Shown here one piece after another: positions 38,101 to 47,100 of a DNA stretch of 64,000 nt. The stretch lies in assembly GCF_024298765.1 (NCBI RefSeq), contig NZ_CP101211.1; one strand, 5' to 3'. The position numbers were made by a program. Each line of letters opens with the position of its first letter. Position 1 is the stretch's first letter. Source of the stretch: Escherichia coli (GTDB lineage Bacteria > Pseudomonadota > Gammaproteobacteria > Enterobacterales > Enterobacteriaceae).

Positions 38101-41100
38101 GGGATGAAAAAGAAACAAGCGATGTGTTAAGCCTTATGGCCTTTTTCCGACAATCAAATGATCCTCGCTTAATGAAGAGAGTATTGGCATTGTTTGGAGA
38201 ACAGGAATCAGTTTTGGATGAAGTGGCATTGAGTATGAGAGGAAGAAAAGTTACTTTTGGCGACCTTGCCATCCCGGAGGACAGTTCTCTCGAAACAAAA
38301 ACATTACATTCAAACTTCGTGCGCTTTACCCAGGAAAGTACTGATAAAGTTGAGATAGCAAAACGTTTCGCCAACCTTACGAAATGGATGGAATCGTCGT
38401 CAATCAAGATGAGGAGTAATAAAGGTACAGCAACCTTAACAAAAATTGCTTTAGACACTTGTAAACAGTGGGCAGAAAAGACTGGTTGGATGAATATGAT
38501 CAATCGTGCTGCTGCAATGTCATTAGGCCCTAGGAAGAAGGACGAGGAATACAGCCCAGAGAAAGTAGTCCTATCAACCTTGCATGGTTCAAAGGGTCTT
38601 GAGTGGAATAAAGTAATAATAATGAGTTGTAATGCGGATCAGATACCAAGTAAAAGATCAGTTGGGGAGGAGGCAATAGAAGAAGAAAGACGTTTGCTTT
38701 ATGTTGGATTTACGCGTGCAGAAAAGCAACTTTTTGTAATGTGGTATGGTGACCCTTCTTTCTTTTTAAGAGAATGCAGTGAAGAAAAGATAAAAGAAGC
38801 AGCTAATATTCGAATTTCTCCAGTTTATACAGAATAATTCGATATGGGCATTTACTTATGCTTAAAGCTATAGTATAAAAACAATGAGCTTAAATATCAG
38901 CTCCCAAATTTGAGTAACTTTGCTTAAAGTTACTTTCGCGTTAAGCGTTGATTTAGCCGTGAAAAGCGGCCAGCTTAAACAAGCTGTAAGACACCACCGG
39001 CAAAATGTCACCTTTGTCGCTGGTGCACTTCCCATGCCTGAAAAAGGCAATCTGAATTTACCAAACCGTAACTAATTTAGCTCCTCCTGGAGCTATTTTT
39101 GTTGCGTACTTCTAATGCCAGATAGTATAAATCAGGCGGTTCATAGCTTACGGGAGATGAATGACAGGCTTTGCCTTCGTGTTGAAACAAAAAATTGTTT
39201 CTTCCTTCTTACTATATATAGGTGACCCCAAATGTCTAAAAATAAAGCTCGCAGTAAAGCCCTTCATCAAACCTTTAGTGAAATTATTCCAGAGATGGAT
39301 AAGGCGCTAAACAAACAGCTCTTAGAAGTTCTGATGAAATATACAGAACGTGATAATGAACTGATTGTTATTTTGAATGAGGACGGCCCAAATATCATTG
39401 AACTTAAGTCTCTTAAGCCTGTGTCTTTGTTGGCCGAAAAGCTTTCTGCTTATTCAAGCTATTATCATGTGGATGTTGTGGAGCTCGTGGTCAAGAAAAT
39501 TGATTTCGAAGGAGCTTATAAGCTTCTTAAAGCTTCCCCAGATGTACCACTTTTTAAAAGCTTAACTGAACTGGATAAATATCTTGTTGAGGAGTTTGAA
39601 AAATTCGGATTAAATTCATTTCTTGACGTGGATAATCTGGATTACTCACTTGAAAAAGCCAGTGAACTCAAAAATGAGCAGTTAATAAATTGGGTTTCGG
39701 ACATCATTTGCAAACGTGAAAAATTAACTTTACGTAAGCGTTTTGATGTCGCAGTAAAGGCCCACTACGAAAATGTAGAAAAAATGTATGATACCATTCG
39801 TCCGTTAATGAAAAAACTGGGTTTCCCAGAAGATCTCATGACGCACACCTTTAGTGAGTTAAGCGTTTTTGAAACTAAAGGATGGGACCATGCAATAAAA
39901 TCGAAAATTGAGACTCTCGCTAAGCGTGAAACTCAATATTTAGATGATGCGGCTAAAGCAGAGAATCGACGTCTTGTAACAGAGAAGTTGGAGAACTCTT
40001 TAGCGATTGCACCAACTAAACCAACAAGAAATTGGTTACATATTGCCGGAATTGCCTGTTTGGTAGTCTGCACGTTCATGTATGTAACTAATAAATTTAT
40101 TTAATCCTGTTAAGGGGGAACCCTAACGGGGCTTCTCTTTGAACAAATCGAGGAGCGGAAAATGTCATATCTTGAATATATCAATGAAGTAAAAGTGTCC
40201 GGGATAGTTATCAGTGCTGTGGAGAAAAAAATGACTGACCAGAGTATAGGTTTGTTAATAAAGCTCAAAAATAGGATGAAGACAGAAGTTGATGGTGAAA
40301 TCACTGAGAGAGAATTTTCAGTTCAAATCAAGGTGTCGCCTGAAATGTATTCAACCTGTTTCACTGGTATAAATCAGGGTGATGAGTTGATGGTCTCCGG
40401 TTATATTGTTGTCGATACTATTATGATTGAAGGGAGAGAACATCCTCTTGACTACATGAGAGTGGTAGCAACAAGTAAGTTGGCTCACATACCTAAACCT
40501 CTAAAAGGTTTTGGACAAAGTAGCTTTAATCAGATCTGACATTAAACCCACCCTAAAGGGGAGAAATCCCTTCATGGGATTTCTCCTTTTGGAGTCCCCA
40601 TGAAACAAAAATTTAGGGCTACTGCAATAAGTAGTAATCAACTTAGTTTTTTTTCTATACTCGATATAGATGAAGATGAAATAACGCAAATAGTTGATTC
40701 ACCCAAAGAGCATTTAAATGATGCTTACACGTCCGGATTAAACTTTAAATCAGAAGAAAGTAACATTTCTGAGATAAATTATGATTCTGAAAGGCGTGAA
40801 AATCACCTTTATGAAAAATCCAAATTACTTAAAAATCAGATTTTGCATACAATTAATTTTGCAACAGAAACAGATTATCTATATACGGTTGAAGAATATA
40901 ACCCAGATTTGGGTGGTCTGGTAATAGAATGGACCCCTGAGGATGTGTATGTTGTTTTTCTATCCGCTATGGAAGAGTCTTTGGAAATCATTAAAGAACT
41001 AGTGTTGAGGAGAAAGTTATTCTTCAAAGATGACAATGGTAATATCACAGTGAATCCACTTTTAGAAGCTGAAACACGGTGGTATATGTCAAAATCATTT

Positions 41101-44100: not shown

Positions 44101-47100
44101 CTGATCCTGTAGCTGAACCTGAGAAATCAGTTTCGCAACAGGAAGACAATGTTGAAAATGGTTTTGATATCGAGCTCAAAGGCTGGTAACTGTTTGCTTT
44201 ATTAAAAACCCCAGATGGGTACTTCACCATCTGGGTGAGTACCCCTTTTTTATAAAGAGGTATTCTATGAAATTAGATCTTAAATCATCACCGCGCCATA
44301 TTAAGCGTTTACAGAATATAGCAAAAGTCATTAGCGGCTTAGGCGATGTAAGAGTTGTAATAGACGACAATACCAAAGGACCGTATTTTGATCCTGTAAA
44401 TAAAGTTTGTGTTTTACCAAACGGCGATTATAGCGATGATGACTTTGTCAGTCTGATTGAAGGTTTTACCTGTCATGAAGCTGGTCATGGTCGCTATACC
44501 GACAGCGAGGTTTACAGTGACGCCTTTAATAGTGTTCTCAAGTCATCTGAAGGGTTTACACGCTTCGATGACGGAATGAATGCAGAGTTTGAGAGCCTCG
44601 CTGAGAAACGTAAAGCTTATAGCAGGGCAAAACGTCTTACCGGGCTTATAAATCTGTTCGATGATGTACAGATGGAAGAGAAGGTTGGTAACGATTATCC
44701 GGATGCAAAGCGGCGGCTTGCAGCCACTTACGCACTGATGGTTAAAGCCGGAAGGATGACTCCTGATATATCTTCTCGTCCGGAAAATCCTGTCCTATTT
44801 ATTGAGTGGTATCTGCTTAACTCATTGCGAGTAAAAGTCCTTCAGCAGGCAGGTCACAAAGAAACACTCGATCCGTTTTTTGACTATGCCCAAAAGATAC
44901 TTTCTCCAGTAATTTCTGATGTTGAGGAAATTTTTCATGATGCTCTTGGTTGTGAAAATACTCAGGGCTGTGAATCCCTTGCTCGTAAGACCCTGGCTCT
45001 TTTAGAGAGACTGCGGGATGAGGCAAGGGAACAACAGCAGCAGACAGAGCAGGAGGAGCAGGAGGCATATGATGAATCCGAGACCGAGACCGAGACCGAT
45101 ACCGAATCAGAAGATAAATCGCTTGAGTCGACTGATAGTCGTGAGGATGATTCTGAGGACGATAGTGAAGGTCAGGCAGATACTTCCGATAACTCTGATC
45201 TTGCTCAAGAGGGATGTTCTGAGCCTTCAGAACTTGCTGAAGATAACGAGGGAAATAATGAACCCACCGGTGGCAATCCCACAGGTGATAACATTATTGA
45301 AGACGATACTGATGCGATTAACCCTTCCGAGAGTGAATCAGATGAAGCCAGTTCGACTAACGTTGAAGATGAAAGTAACTTTTCATCGGCTCAATGGGAG
45401 ATACTGGCAGATTTGTTGGATGCCTTTCTTGGCAGTGATGAGGATAGCGAAGATTATCACGATGCTTTGGCTAAAGAGATTGAAGGTATTGCATCAAAAG
45501 TATCCGATGACGTGAAAGCCGAATTCGGTGCTTCTGAATGGGATATCCCTGATCTCCTTATCGATTTGAATGTTTACAATGAGGCTTTGTCTCTGAGTCA
45601 TTCAATCGGTAGCGACTTGTCTGTTTTACAGCAGGTTAAAATGCGTGGCCGAAACAAAACTCATGAGCGTGGAATTACCTTCGATGGAAATCGATTAATT
45701 CTGTCACCAATGGGAGTTCGTGATGTCTTCAGAGCTCAAAGCGAATCTAAAAATAGAGGGCATGTTGGCCTCGTATTAGTTCGTGATATTTCAGCGTCAA
45801 TGGCTAATGATGAAAGATATATTCATGCCATTAAGTCAGATCTTGCTTTATCGATGGCCGCTGAAAGTTTGTCAAAAATGCATGTCTCCAATATAGTCTT
45901 TCCCTTCAAGGAAAGTGAATTTGAGATTATCAAAACGTTTGATCAAAGCGTTGAGGAATCTCTATCGAAATTCACTCTTGGATGTAAGGGTTATTATACC
46001 CCTACGGGATCGGCTTTAATGGCAGCTGTTGATCTGTTACTTGACAGCCAATTCGATAGGAAAATAATTTTTCTTATAACTGATGGTTATCCGAATAAAT
46101 CGGAATTTACTATCGGCGAAGTTATGGAAAAGGCTAAATGTAATGGAATAGAAATCGTTGGTGTTGGTATTAAGACTGATGAAATAATTGGTTTTGAAAC
46201 GGACACTTTCGTAACAGTTGATGATACTTCTTTATTGTCTATTGAAGTCAGTAAGCTAGTTCATCAAATACTTTCTTAATAAACTCTACCCAATCGGGGC
46301 AAAAGGCCCCGGTGGGTCTTTTTGCTCCATGAAGGAATAAGGAGCAAAATATGACTCAGATAAAAACTTACCGTGTAGAACATGAAAAAGTCGGTGCGAT
46401 GCATAAAGTCCGTATTTTCGGACGTGTTGGTGAAGTTATAAGCAATGATAGCCCTCAGGAAAGAATCTTCCGCGAAGTCACTATAGCGGAGGGTAATAGC
46501 CAGCAGGCTGCGTTACTTGTAGATAACTACATACAGCGTCTTGAGAATAATGGCTTCACGACTGAAGCATAAATGTTGAGGGCCCCCGGGCCCTCTTTCT
46601 TAAATTCTGCGTTGTGGGTTTCTCCCTGTCTTCTGCACCGCAGAAGGCATTGAGAAACTCACAATGCCAGATAAGAGAGATCATCATGACTTATGCATCC
46701 CCGGCTCTTCGTCGTAATCCACAGGAAGTATCTGAACACTTTATTAAACTCGTTCATGCTCGAATTGCTGAAGTGTCTGGCTGGAAGTATATATTCGAAA
46801 GAATACCTGCTTTCAAAGACGCTTGTGCAAAAGCCCCGAGCCAGGTTCCTTGCCCGTTTACTGGCGCAGGGAAATCGAAGTTTCGTTTCCGACAAAAAGA
46901 CCTTTATACCGGATGTGCGATCCATAATGACTTTCCGGTAAATGAGTTTTGCGACGGAATTGATGTTCTGGCGAAATATTATGAATTAAGTAAAACGCAG
47001 ACTTGCAAAAAGATTCTCTCAGATTTTTTCGGGATGGATCTGCATGCTCCGTTAACTGACGCCGACATTGAAAATGAACGACGCTATAAATCAGCAGTTC

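What the first reader, a model, noticed from the sequence alone, without database searches (positions are those of the whole stretch)
40600..46279. AAA+ (MoxR/CobS-like) ATPase and vWA protein with a long poly-acidic linker: candidate uncharacterised two-component system
A MoxR/CobS-type AAA+ ATPase (41635-42693) and a CobT-like vWA/MIDAS protein (44267-46279) sit one gene apart, each flanked by unknown ORFs and structured palindromes. The vWA protein carries a ~120-aa D/E/S/T-rich segment (about 45030-45390, e.g. ETETETDTESED, EDDSEDDSE) and an N-terminal HEAGH motif that could be a zincin-like site. Such a linker could act as a DNA mimic or chaperone-like tether, but AAA+/vWA pairs are generic and the function here is unknown. 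Candidate roles include plasmid establishment, anti-defence, or a defence/exclusion function.
Basis: partly seen in the sequence, partly recalled or inferred. Interest (0 to 1): 0.75.

Follow-up and report, generated by a model that had tools for sequence, protein, structure and literature searches.

The report
Plasmid CobS/CobT-like ATPase–adaptor module
This IncHI2 plasmid carries a conserved three-gene machine (an ATP-driven motor, an adaptor with a live-looking protease motif, and an unknown partner protein) that resembles the cobalt-chelatase motor but most likely helps the plasmid survive entry into a new host; its ATPase relative in IncC plasmids is already known to block restriction enzymes.

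Summary
The window is the start of an IncHI2 conjugative plasmid.

The genes are not a generic AAA+/vWA pair. With DUF3150 between them, they form a triad found in 10 of 10 independent loci examined, on MOBH/MPF-F plasmids and on metagenomic or draft-genome contigs. DUF3150 has no match in the phage collection.

The vWA protein has the domain plan of cobaltochelatase CobT: a zincin-like N-domain, a disordered linker, a pore "shaft" and a MIDAS vWA domain. Unlike the four true CobT proteins compared, it keeps HExxH…E. No CobN is present, and chelatase model scores are far below cut-off.

The cluster's conservation in R478, Rts1, SXT and R391 was noted in 2009. The IncC ATPase homologue (Vcrx089), together with Vcrx090, gives anti-type-I-restriction activity in the recipient. 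The window has no Vcrx090 homologue, and DUF3150 and the vWA protein have been tested nowhere.

My best reading is a CobST-like remodelling machine used at plasmid establishment, probably for anti-restriction. New here: the retained zincin motif, a conserved aromatic C-terminal tip on DUF3150, and a variable gene slot after the ATPase. Interest is moderate.

The parts
37053..38837 (+). UvrD/Rep-like SF1 helicase; recurrent neighbour of the module
   Evidence: NCBIfam Rep/UvrD at 7e-53, below cut-off. Homologues lie upstream of the triad in L002, L003, L010, L013 and L014.
40162..40539 (+). 125-aa protein with no family. It is only marginally similar to an SSB in another locus. SSB genes occupy this position elsewhere.
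   Evidence: No Pfam hit. phmmer 0.0097 to the SSB-containing ORF of L013. A homologue exists only in the Klebsiella locus L002.
40600..41577 (+). 325-aa hypothetical protein; lineage-restricted, not part of the conserved core
   Evidence: No Pfam, NCBIfam or PHROG hit. Homologue only in L002 (1.3e-14). Not similar to IncC Vcrx090.
41635..42693 (+). CobS/NorQ/midasin-type AAA+ ATPase (AAA_5), the motor. Walker A at nt 41941-41964, Walker B at nt 42130-42150.
   Evidence: Pfam AAA_5 at 9e-28. PDB matches: CobS 9ujv_A at 2e-8 over aa 43-300, NorQ at 2e-9, midasin. PHROG 249 'porphyrin biosynthesis' (CobS) at 2.5e-30. 27% identical to IncC Vcrx089. Motifs conserved in 10 homologues.
42825..42992 (+). 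55-aa ORF in the variable slot between the ATPase and DUF3150
   Evidence: Annotated in RefSeq. No homologue in the other loci. The same slot holds unrelated genes of 117-302 aa elsewhere, including vcrx090 in IncC.
43012..43042 (+). 14-bp-stem hairpin followed by T8, in front of DUF3150
43062..44189 (+). DUF3150 protein, the third conserved component. Folded core is aa ~10-305.
43977..44186 (+). Disordered acidic tail of DUF3150, ending in the aromatic tip ...ELKGW-COOH
   Evidence: pLDDT below 55. Tail net charge -12. 67 of 75 family members end in F, W or Y, mostly as [FW]-G-x-[FW].
44267..46279 (+). CobT-like adaptor, whole gene
44267..45079 (+). N-domain with zincin-like topology. HEAGH at nt 44474-44488, E137 at nt 44675-44677.
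   Evidence: In the AF2 model, helix 58-77 carries HExxH and helix 111-143 carries E137, after a 3-strand sheet. The domain aligns with the true CobT N-domain, which lacks HExxH. The CobT N-domain is described as M48C-peptidase-like (bioRxiv 10.64898/2026.07.21.739949).
45029..45388 (+). Acidic low-complexity disordered linker
   Evidence: 45 D/E against 2 K/R. pLDDT below 40. Hypervariable among homologues.
45638..45760 (+). Conserved pre-vWA segment (RGxxFDxxRL...G..DVFR), the candidate 'shaft' that enters the ATPase pore
   Evidence: R468, G469, R476, L477, G483 and F488 are invariant. It aligns with the CobT segment just upstream of MIDAS, which is where the preprint places the shaft: Q373-R413 against MIDAS D422.
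45761..46276 (+). vWA domain with complete MIDAS (D507-x-S-x-S, T580, D606)
   Evidence: Pfam VWA. The best Foldseek PDB matches are the NorD vWA domain and the Rea1/MDN1 MIDAS domains.
46351..46572 (+). 73-aa hypothetical protein; lineage-restricted
   Evidence: Homologue only in L002.
46686..47918 (+). Toprim primase-like protein (DUF7146 + Toprim_3); recurrent neighbour
   Evidence: Pfam. PHROG 510 DNA primase at 1.7e-27. Homologues lie next to the triad in L002, L003, L008 and L014.
47928..47950 (+). Strong terminator-like hairpin (9 bp, 8 G-C) that ends the gene string

Best explanation
The locus is the IncHI2 copy of a backbone module shared by MOBH/MPF-F conjugative elements. It has three parts: a CobS-like AAA+ motor, a DUF3150 protein, and a CobT-like adaptor. 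The adaptor consists of a zincin-type N-domain with intact HExxH...E, a disordered linker, a pore-entering shaft and a vWA/MIDAS domain.

Shown here: the domain architecture, the motif conservation, and the three-gene linkage in every locus examined.

Inferred from the solved CobST, NorQD and Rea1 systems: the ATPase forms a hexamer. The adaptor's N-domain docks on the ATPase lid, and its shaft inserts into the pore. The MIDAS site holds an acidic residue of a client protein. ATP hydrolysis then pulls on the adaptor to remodel the client, and perhaps to cleave it through the zincin site. DUF3150 is either the client or a client-recruiting subunit, in the position CobN holds in the chelatase. 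Its acidic tail with an aromatic tip is the probable docking or threading handle.

Inferred from the IncC homologue: the machine acts in the recipient cell just after transfer and protects the incoming plasmid, most probably from type I restriction. It is not a cobalt chelatase.
For: Replicon and conservation:
- The window is IncHI2, MOBH, MPF_F. 1114 plasmid records match at 99% identity or more.
- The triad is present in the window, L002 (Klebsiella IncFIB/HI1B-type), L003 (Aeromonas), L004 (IncC), L005 (Pseudomonas MOBH plasmid, replicon typed IncP), L008/9, L010, L011/12, L013 and L014.

Architecture:
- The ATPase matches CobS nearly end to end, and its Walker and sensor motifs are conserved.
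- The adaptor has an N-domain, a disordered linker and a vWA domain. This is the plan reported for CobT.
- The N- and C-domains both align with true CobT.
- HExxH plus E137 is invariant in the mobile-element family and absent from true CobT.
- MIDAS is complete. The best structural matches are NorD and Rea1 MIDAS domains, which are partners of AAA_5 motors.

Function:
- Deleting vcrx089-090 in IncC pVCR94 reduced transfer 25-fold into hsdR+ V. cholerae only. [quoted passage not shown]
- Deleting vcrx089-90 in pKAZ3 raised restriction by EcoBI and EcoKI 424- to 906-fold (PMC11602122).
- The pCAR1 operon ORF100-109, which holds the ATPase and the vWA gene, is among the most highly transcribed backbone units. 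Its transcription is higher in the transconjugant host (PMC2642839).
- General MoxR-vWA principle: PMC7159879.
Against: - No experiment exists for the IncHI2 genes, or for DUF3150 or the vWA protein in any element.
- The IncC phenotype comes from a double deletion that includes vcrx090. That gene has no detectable homologue in the window or in the other loci.
- The ATPase is only 27% identical to Vcrx089, and Pfam finds no CbbQ_C domain in it.
- The IncC TnSeq screen flagged only vcrx089-093. That screen compared Cas+ with Cas- recipients, both restriction-proficient, so it could not have revealed a restriction-specific role for vcrx094/095 (my reading).
- In SXT, single deletions in this region cost at most 10-fold in transfer between isogenic E. 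coli (PMC2791158).
- A zincin motif does not prove a proteolytic mechanism. ArdC's metalloprotease activity is dispensable for its anti-restriction function (PMC7213743).
- The position of the module relative to oriT was not determined.
Confidence: 0.5

Rival explanations
1. The triad is an accessory of plasmid DNA metabolism. It would assemble, load or recycle the neighbouring helicase, SSB, primase or recombination proteins on transferred single-stranded DNA, for example during complementary-strand synthesis or recombinational repair. It would not target a host defence.
For: The neighbours are DNA enzymes again and again:
- UvrD-like helicase in the window, L002, L003, L010, L013 and L014.
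- SSB in L004, L010 and L013.
- Bet/Exo inserted between the ATPase and DUF3150 in IncC.
- Toprim primase next to the triad in the window, L002, L003, L008 and L014.
- A 3'-5' exonuclease and a DEAD helicase in L005.

The DUF3150 tail, acidic with a terminal aromatic residue, recalls the protein-docking tails of SSB and T7 gp2.5 (the resemblance is from my own knowledge). AAA+ proteins commonly act as loaders.
Against: The ATPase belongs to the CobS/NorQ/midasin branch. The only experimental phenotype for a family member depends on restriction and disappears in a delta-hsdR recipient (PMC7498323). The folded core of DUF3150 is acidic, with a median pI of 5.3, and shows no recognisable DNA-binding fold.
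Confidence: 0.25
2. The acidic linker of the vWA protein, or the DUF3150 tail, is itself the effector. It would act as a polyanionic DNA mimic that titrates type I restriction enzymes as ArdA and Ocr do, with the ATPase only assisting.
For: The linker carries a net charge of -43 over 120 residues. The family's known phenotype is strongest against type I enzymes (PMC11602122), which are the classic targets of DNA mimics (own knowledge).
Against: The linker is predicted disordered. It is hypervariable in length and composition: S/D repeats, Q-rich, QQD repeats. In IncC, the one element with a demonstrated phenotype, it is only weakly acidic. True CobT, a chelatase subunit, has a comparable acidic linker of about 90 residues. 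ArdA and Ocr are folded arrays of fixed charges (own knowledge).
Confidence: 0.08
3. The genes form a defence or exclusion system carried by the plasmid, analogous to the MoxR-vWA ternary conflict systems, acting against phages or competing plasmids.
For: AAA+/vWA pairs with a third protein are cores of predicted conflict systems (PMC7159879). Large plasmids often carry defence genes.
Against: - There are no PADLOC matches beyond weak P-loop hits with E of 2e-4 or worse.
- The module sits at a fixed backbone position, beside traN in five of the ten loci (window, L002, L004, L005, L010), not in a variable hotspot.
- No effector domain other than the zincin motif is present.
- The ATPase is AAA_5 CobS-type rather than MoxR proper.
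- The IncC homologue acts for the incoming plasmid (PMC7498323).
Confidence: 0.07
4. The genes are genuine cobaltochelatase subunits (cobS/cobT) acting as auxiliary metabolic genes for cobalamin synthesis, as some database names suggest.
For: Weak hits to CobS (TIGR01650) and to a cobaltochelatase model (TIGR02442). The phage CobS PHROG matches. Some DUF3150 proteins are named 'cobalamin biosynthesis protein' in UniProt.
Against: Scores are 34.4 against a cut-off of 558.55, and 33.5 against 779.45. The window has no CobN: its only ORFs over 700 aa are TraC-like, RSP and TrhN. The adaptor keeps the HExxH motif that the four true CobT proteins compared lack. The context is conjugation and DNA metabolism.
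Confidence: 0.01

Closest known systems
IncC/SXT 'hde' operon anti-restriction pair Vcrx089-Vcrx090 (AntiDefenseFinder system vcrx089_090)
   Same: Homologous AAA_5 ATPase (27% identity, phmmer 1e-23). Same position after traN in a MOBH/MPF-F element. Same transcript or gene string as the DUF3150 and CobT-like vWA genes.
   Different: No Vcrx090 homologue in the window. No ssb-bet-exo insertion. Pfam does not call a CbbQ_C domain. The IncHI2 genes have never been tested.
Aerobic cobaltochelatase motor CobS-CobT(-CobN)
   Same: AAA_5 ATPase alignable over almost its whole length with CobS. The adaptor shows the same order of zincin-like N-domain, disordered acidic linker, shaft and vWA/MIDAS, and both its domains align with CobT.
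   Different: No CobN. DUF3150 sits between the two genes instead. HExxH is intact here and absent from the four true CobT proteins compared. The vWA domain is more compact, lacking the CobT inserts. Scores are far below the family cut-offs. The setting is a conjugative plasmid.
NorQ-NorD, CbbQ-CbbO and Rea1/midasin (AAA_5 motor plus MIDAS adaptor remodellers)
   Same: The best structural matches of the C-domain are NorD vWA and Rea1/MDN1 MIDAS. The ATPase matches NorQ, CbbQ and midasin AAA modules. The expected working principle is the same: MIDAS grips the client and the motor pulls.
   Different: The clients of those systems (NorB, Rubisco, pre-60S factors) are absent. This family has an N-terminal zincin motif and a dedicated DUF3150 partner.
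ArdC (IncW R388)
   Same: A plasmid protein that overcomes HsdRMS in the recipient and contains a zincin metalloprotease domain (PMC7213743).
   Different: ArdC is a single protein with an ssDNA-binding domain and no ATPase or vWA domain. No homology was detected. Its protease activity is not needed for anti-restriction.

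Membership tests
Cobaltochelatase CobS/CobT/CobN | CobS equivalog score (TIGR01650 cut-off 558.55 bits) | tested here: not met
   34.4 bits
Cobaltochelatase CobS/CobT/CobN | CobT family models (PF06213 CobT, PF11775 CobT_C; TIGR02442 cut-off 779.45) | tested here: not met
   The window protein hits only VWA in Pfam. TIGR02442 scores 33.5 bits. More distant family members (L008, P0054) do hit CobT or CobT_C.
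Cobaltochelatase CobS/CobT/CobN | CobN catalytic subunit encoded with, or available to, the pair | tested here: not met
   No CobN in the window. Its ORFs over 700 aa are TraC-like, RSP and TrhN.
Cobaltochelatase CobS/CobT/CobN | Adaptor architecture: M48-like N-domain, disordered linker, shaft, vWA/MIDAS | tested here: met
   AF2 model and alignments, compared with the preprint's description
vcrx089_090 anti-restriction system | AAA_5 ATPase homologous to Vcrx089 | tested here: met
   tblastn 27% identity over 73% of the query, 2e-19. phmmer 1.3e-23. Syntenic position.
vcrx089_090 anti-restriction system | CbbQ_C domain on the ATPase | tested here: inconclusive
   Pfam does not report CbbQ_C, but the C-terminal region aligns with homologues that have it.
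vcrx089_090 anti-restriction system | Vcrx090 partner gene | tested here: not met
   No similarity to any window ORF by BLASTP or phmmer
vcrx089_090 anti-restriction system | Restriction-dependent transfer defect when deleted | not testable with these tools
   Needs mating assays into hsdR+ and delta-hsdR recipients
Zincin (gluzincin, M48-like) metallopeptidase | HExxH on a helix, plus a third-ligand Glu on a following helix, after a small beta-sheet | tested here: met
   H70, E71, H74 and E137 are invariant. Model topology: strands 29-51, helix 58-77, helix 111-143. No fold search of the N-domain alone was possible.
Zincin (gluzincin, M48-like) metallopeptidase | Zinc binding and peptidase activity | not testable with these tools
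   Biochemistry needed
vWA/MIDAS adaptor of AAA_5 motors (NorD, CbbO, Rea1 type) | Complete MIDAS (DxSxS, T, D) and a vWA fold closest to NorD and Rea1 | tested here: met
MoxR-vWA ternary conflict (defence) systems | MoxR-proper ATPase plus a VMAP, iSTAND or other defining third component, or a match to defence-system models | tested here: not met
   The ATPase is AAA_5 of the CobS/NorQ type. PADLOC gives no significant match for the ATPase, DUF3150 or the vWA protein. The third gene is DUF3150.
DNA-mimic anti-restriction proteins (ArdA, Ocr) | Folded, conserved array of acidic residues that imitates B-DNA | tested here: not met
   The acidic segment is disordered and hypervariable

The most novel reading that the evidence does not exclude
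The triad would be a new mechanistic class of anti-defence: an ATP-driven remodelling machine that carries its own protease. It would be a CobST-type motor whose adaptor kept a live zincin site. In the recipient cell it would actively dismantle or cleave host restriction complexes or other DNA-bound host proteins, rather than inhibiting them one-for-one. DUF3150 would be the target-recruiting subunit, docking through an SSB-like acidic tail with an aromatic tip. The fast-changing gene slot after the ATPase (Vcrx090 in IncC, a 55-aa ORF here) would set target specificity.
Probability: 0.2. Interest if true: 0.8.

Novelty: new variant of a known kind. Interest (0 to 1): 0.5.

Why it matters
IncHI2, IncHI1, IncC, IncT, IncP-7 and SXT/R391 elements are major carriers of multidrug resistance, including mcr-1, tet(X4) and carbapenemases.

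All of them keep this three-gene module, yet only the ATPase has any phenotype, and only in IncC. If the whole triad is the machine behind that anti-restriction effect, it would explain part of the broad host range of these plasmids. It would also be the first enzyme-driven anti-restriction system, and it would offer a conserved target for blocking plasmid establishment.

The comparison with the newly solved CobST structures gives concrete residues to mutate: Walker B, HExxH, the shaft, MIDAS, and the DUF3150 tip. The question is therefore directly testable.

Tried and rejected
- PADLOC scan of nine proteins gave only weak P-loop hits, plus generic UvrD/GajB hits for the helicase. No defence assignment follows.
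- PHROGs have no family for DUF3150. tblastn of two DUF3150 proteins against 50,697 phage records found nothing except one mislabelled Salmonella plasmid record. The triad is therefore not a phage module; phages carry only CobS-like ATPases.
- The search for related loci with the DUF3150 alignment failed because the alignment is too divergent for seed patterns. I used the look-up of encoding contigs on representatives instead.
- The word-indexed homologue search with alignment A3 was dominated by IncHI proteins and low-complexity matches. It was useful only for retrieving true CobT sequences.
- The search for a Vcrx090 homologue was negative.
- The supplementary TnSeq table of PMC7498323 is not held, so insertion counts for vcrx094/095 could not be read.
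- The Rts1 deletion paper, the early-conjugation transcriptome paper and the pRAS4 paper do not mention these genes.
- The intergenic hairpins are not a repeat family. I read them as ordinary intra-operon terminators or RNA stabilisers.
- The N-domain could not be fold-searched alone. The full-length Foldseek list is filled by vWA hits.

Full report
**Observation.** Every element of the finding is in the sequence.
- The ORFs at 40600-41577, 41635-42693, 43050/43062-44189 and 44267-46279 are open and lie on the + strand.
- The 352-aa protein is an AAA_5 ATPase (Pfam 9e-28). Its Walker A is GESGSGKT and its Walker B is ILLDEVD.
- The 670-aa protein has a C-terminal vWA domain with a complete MIDAS motif.
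- Residues 255-374 (nt 45029-45388) contain 45 D/E against 2 K/R and include the quoted strings.
- HEAGH sits at residues 70-74.
- G+C hairpins lie in most intergenic gaps of this gene string. There are 22 terminator-like sites against 7.9 +/- 2.3 in shuffles.

**Where it is.** The stretch is 100% identical, at the same coordinates, to IncHI2 plasmids such as pR18.0877_278k (MOBH relaxase, MPF_F). 1114 plasmid records match at 99% identity or more. The genes lie just downstream of the Tra2 genes trhF-trhN, in a long same-strand string. The order is a UvrD-like helicase, three lineage-restricted small genes, the ATPase, a 55-aa ORF, DUF3150, the vWA protein, a 73-aa ORF and a Toprim primase-like gene.

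**What the proteins are.** The ATPase belongs to the CobS/NorQ/CbbQ/midasin branch.
- It aligns with solved CobS over residues 43-300 (2e-8), and with NorQ (2e-9) and midasin modules.
- It also matches the phage 'CobS' PHROG.

The vWA protein folds, in an AlphaFold2 model with mean pLDDT 72.5, into three parts:
- an N-domain (residues 8-271, pLDDT about 90);
- a disordered stretch (272-370, pLDDT below 40);
- a C-domain (374-670).

The C-domain's best solved matches are the vWA domain of NorD and the MIDAS domain of Rea1/MDN1. Both of those are adaptors of AAA_5 motors.

A 2026 preprint on the cobaltochelatase motor describes CobT as having exactly this plan: an M48C-peptidase-like N-domain that docks on the CobS lid, a disordered linker of about 90 residues, a 'shaft' that enters the CobS pore, and a vWA/MIDAS domain (bioRxiv 10.64898/2026.07.21.739949).

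I retrieved true CobT proteins and aligned them with the plasmid family.
- Both domains align.
- The invariant pre-vWA segment RGxxFDxxRL...G..DVFR (residues 458-498) falls where the CobT shaft lies, just upstream of the MIDAS.
- One difference is sharp. All 22 distinct mobile-element proteins aligned have H-E-x-x-H and a Glu about 65 residues later, down to 20% identity. The four true CobT proteins have no HExxH at that position.

**The linker.** A low-complexity disordered linker is universal in the family, but its composition is not. It is D/E/S/T-rich here, (SD)n in Klebsiella plasmids, Q- or QQD-rich in Aeromonas and Yersinia plasmids, and only weakly acidic in IncC. True CobT has a comparable acidic linker. 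This fits a flexible tether, not a specific DNA mimic.

**The third gene.** DUF3150 (Pfam 4e-23) is always there. A full HMMER scan of 1.84 billion representatives found 118 relatives. The contexts of divergent ones, together with plasmid records, give 10 independent loci:
- IncHI2 (the window);
- Klebsiella IncFIB/HI1B-type;
- Aeromonas;
- IncC;
- a Pseudomonas MOBH plasmid (replicon typed IncP);
- five metagenomic or draft-genome contigs.

In all 10, an AAA_5 gene lies upstream of DUF3150 and a CobT-like gene with HExxH lies downstream. Two loci depart from strict adjacency. In IncC, ssb-bet-exo is inserted between the ATPase and DUF3150. In L014, a primase gene and a small gene separate DUF3150 from the adaptor.

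UvrD-like helicase, SSB and Toprim primase genes are frequent neighbours. The 325-aa ORF in the finding's range occurs only in IncHI2 and the Klebsiella lineage. DUF3150 is absent from the phage collection.

The DUF3150 model is confident (pLDDT 83.7) but has no informative structural relative.

I noticed one new feature of this family.
- 67 of 75 members end in F, W or Y, usually as [FW]-G-x-[FW]-COOH.
- That tip sits at the end of a disordered, length-variable, acidic tail (median 54 residues, net charge -11).
- Here the protein ends ...ELKGW.

**What is already known.**
- Miyakoshi et al. 2009 noted that pCAR1 ORF100-103 (MoxR-like ATPase ORF101, vWA protein ORF103) are conserved in R478 (the IncHI2 prototype), Rts1, SXT and R391. 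The operon was among the most strongly transcribed backbone units, more so in a transconjugant host (PMC2642839).
- In SXT, deletions in this region reduced transfer at most 10-fold between isogenic strains (PMC2791158).
- Roy et al. 2020 showed that IncC vcrx089 (the ATPase homologue) together with vcrx090 is needed for transfer into a V. cholerae recipient with a type I R-M system. The genes are not needed with a delta-hsdR recipient, and they act from the recipient side. cDNA primed from vcrx094 amplified vcrx087, vcrx089 and bet, so vcrx094 shares that transcript; by position in L004 it would be the DUF3150 gene, an assignment I did not check against the pVCR94 annotation (PMC7498323).
- Dimitriu et al. 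2024 confirmed effects of 424- to 906-fold against EcoBI and EcoKI (PMC11602122).
- The pair is now an AntiDefenseFinder system (PMC11724313).
- Nobody has tested DUF3150 or the vWA gene. The TnSeq contrast used in 2020 (Cas+ against Cas-, both R-M+) could not have revealed them.

**How this locus relates.** The window's ATPase is the positional and sequence counterpart of Vcrx089: 27% identity, and the only AAA_5 gene in either region. Vcrx090 has no homologue here or in any other locus. The slot between the ATPase and DUF3150 holds unrelated genes in different elements. It is a 55-aa ORF here and 117-302 aa elsewhere.

**Mechanism.**
- Shown: the architecture, the motifs and the linkage.
- Inferred by homology with CobST, NorQD and Rea1: a hexameric motor grips the adaptor's shaft. 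The adaptor's N-domain sits on the lid. MIDAS holds an acidic residue of a client, and ATP hydrolysis remodels the client. The retained zincin site may add cleavage.
- DUF3150 takes the place CobN has in the chelatase, as client or recruiter. Its tail is a plausible docking or threading handle.
- Inferred from IncC: the biological role is protection of the incoming plasmid in the recipient, most likely against type I restriction.
- I put 0.5 on this whole chain. The structural part alone deserves about 0.85.

**Rivals.**
- A DNA-metabolism accessory, suggested by the neighbourhood (0.25).
- An acidic segment acting directly as a DNA mimic (0.08).
- A plasmid-borne defence or exclusion system (0.07; nothing in PADLOC, fixed backbone position).
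- A real chelatase (0.01; scores of 34 and 33 bits against cut-offs of 558 and 779, and no CobN).
- A caution: ArdC also has a metalloprotease domain, and it is dispensable for anti-restriction (PMC7213743).

**Verdict.** The cluster itself is not a discovery. It is a long-noticed backbone module, and its ATPase family already has an anti-restriction phenotype.

What remains open, and is made testable here, is whether the three genes form one CobST-like machine. Also open are the roles of the live zincin motif, the DUF3150 tip and the variable slot. I class it as a new variant of a known kind, with interest 0.5.

Noticed in passing
window 43977-44186 (and alignment A2): DUF3150 proteins carry a disordered, acidic, length-variable C-terminal tail that ends in an aromatic residue in 67 of 75 family members, typically as [FW]-G-x-[FW]-COOH; here it is ...ELKGW. 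The Pfam model covers only the folded core. The tail resembles the docking tails of SSB and T7 gp2.5 (own knowledge).
   Followed up: partly
window 42694-43061; L004 9947-10855; L008 3876-4550; L010-L014: The gap between the ATPase and DUF3150 is a variable gene slot. It holds a 55-aa ORF in IncHI2, the 302-aa Vcrx090 in IncC, and mostly unrelated genes of 117-224 aa elsewhere. It is empty in the Klebsiella and Pseudomonas plasmids.
   Followed up: partly
window 36800-48800: Terminator-like G+C hairpins are about three times more frequent than in shuffles (22 against 7.9 +/- 2.3). Most intergenic gaps of the same-strand gene string carry one. Their sequences are unrelated to each other.
   Followed up: partly
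window 47950-47997: A 23-nt A+T-rich inverted repeat (GGTTATCTTATCAATATTATATT / AAAATTGTATTGATAAGATAACC, 87% complementary, 2 nt apart) lies directly after the strong terminator that follows the Toprim gene. It could be an operator or another DNA site.
   Followed up: no
window 48789-53795: A run of five hypothetical proteins of about 250-320 aa on the same strand, with two weakly paralogous pairs: 49723 with 50742 (phmmer about 1e-6) and 51729 with 52839 (about 1e-17). No family was assigned.
   Followed up: partly
window 37053-38837 versus L001 8454-10238: The UvrD-like helicase is one intact 594-aa ORF in the window. In pR18.0877_278k it is split into two ORFs, and no CDS is listed there in that record's gene table.
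   Followed up: no
L004 8968-9936 (IncC Vcrx089): The Walker B of Vcrx089 reads LLINEVD (Asn in place of the usual Asp before the Glu). The window ATPase and most other homologues have DE.
   Followed up: no
L010 9045-9866: One CobT-like adaptor has HEAGGH, a one-residue insertion in the HExxH motif. It is the only deviation seen in the mobile-element family.
   Followed up: no
window 56398-57360: A Tus-like 'DNA replication terminus site-binding protein' is annotated at the end of the same gene string, in IncHI2 and in the Klebsiella plasmid L002.
   Followed up: no
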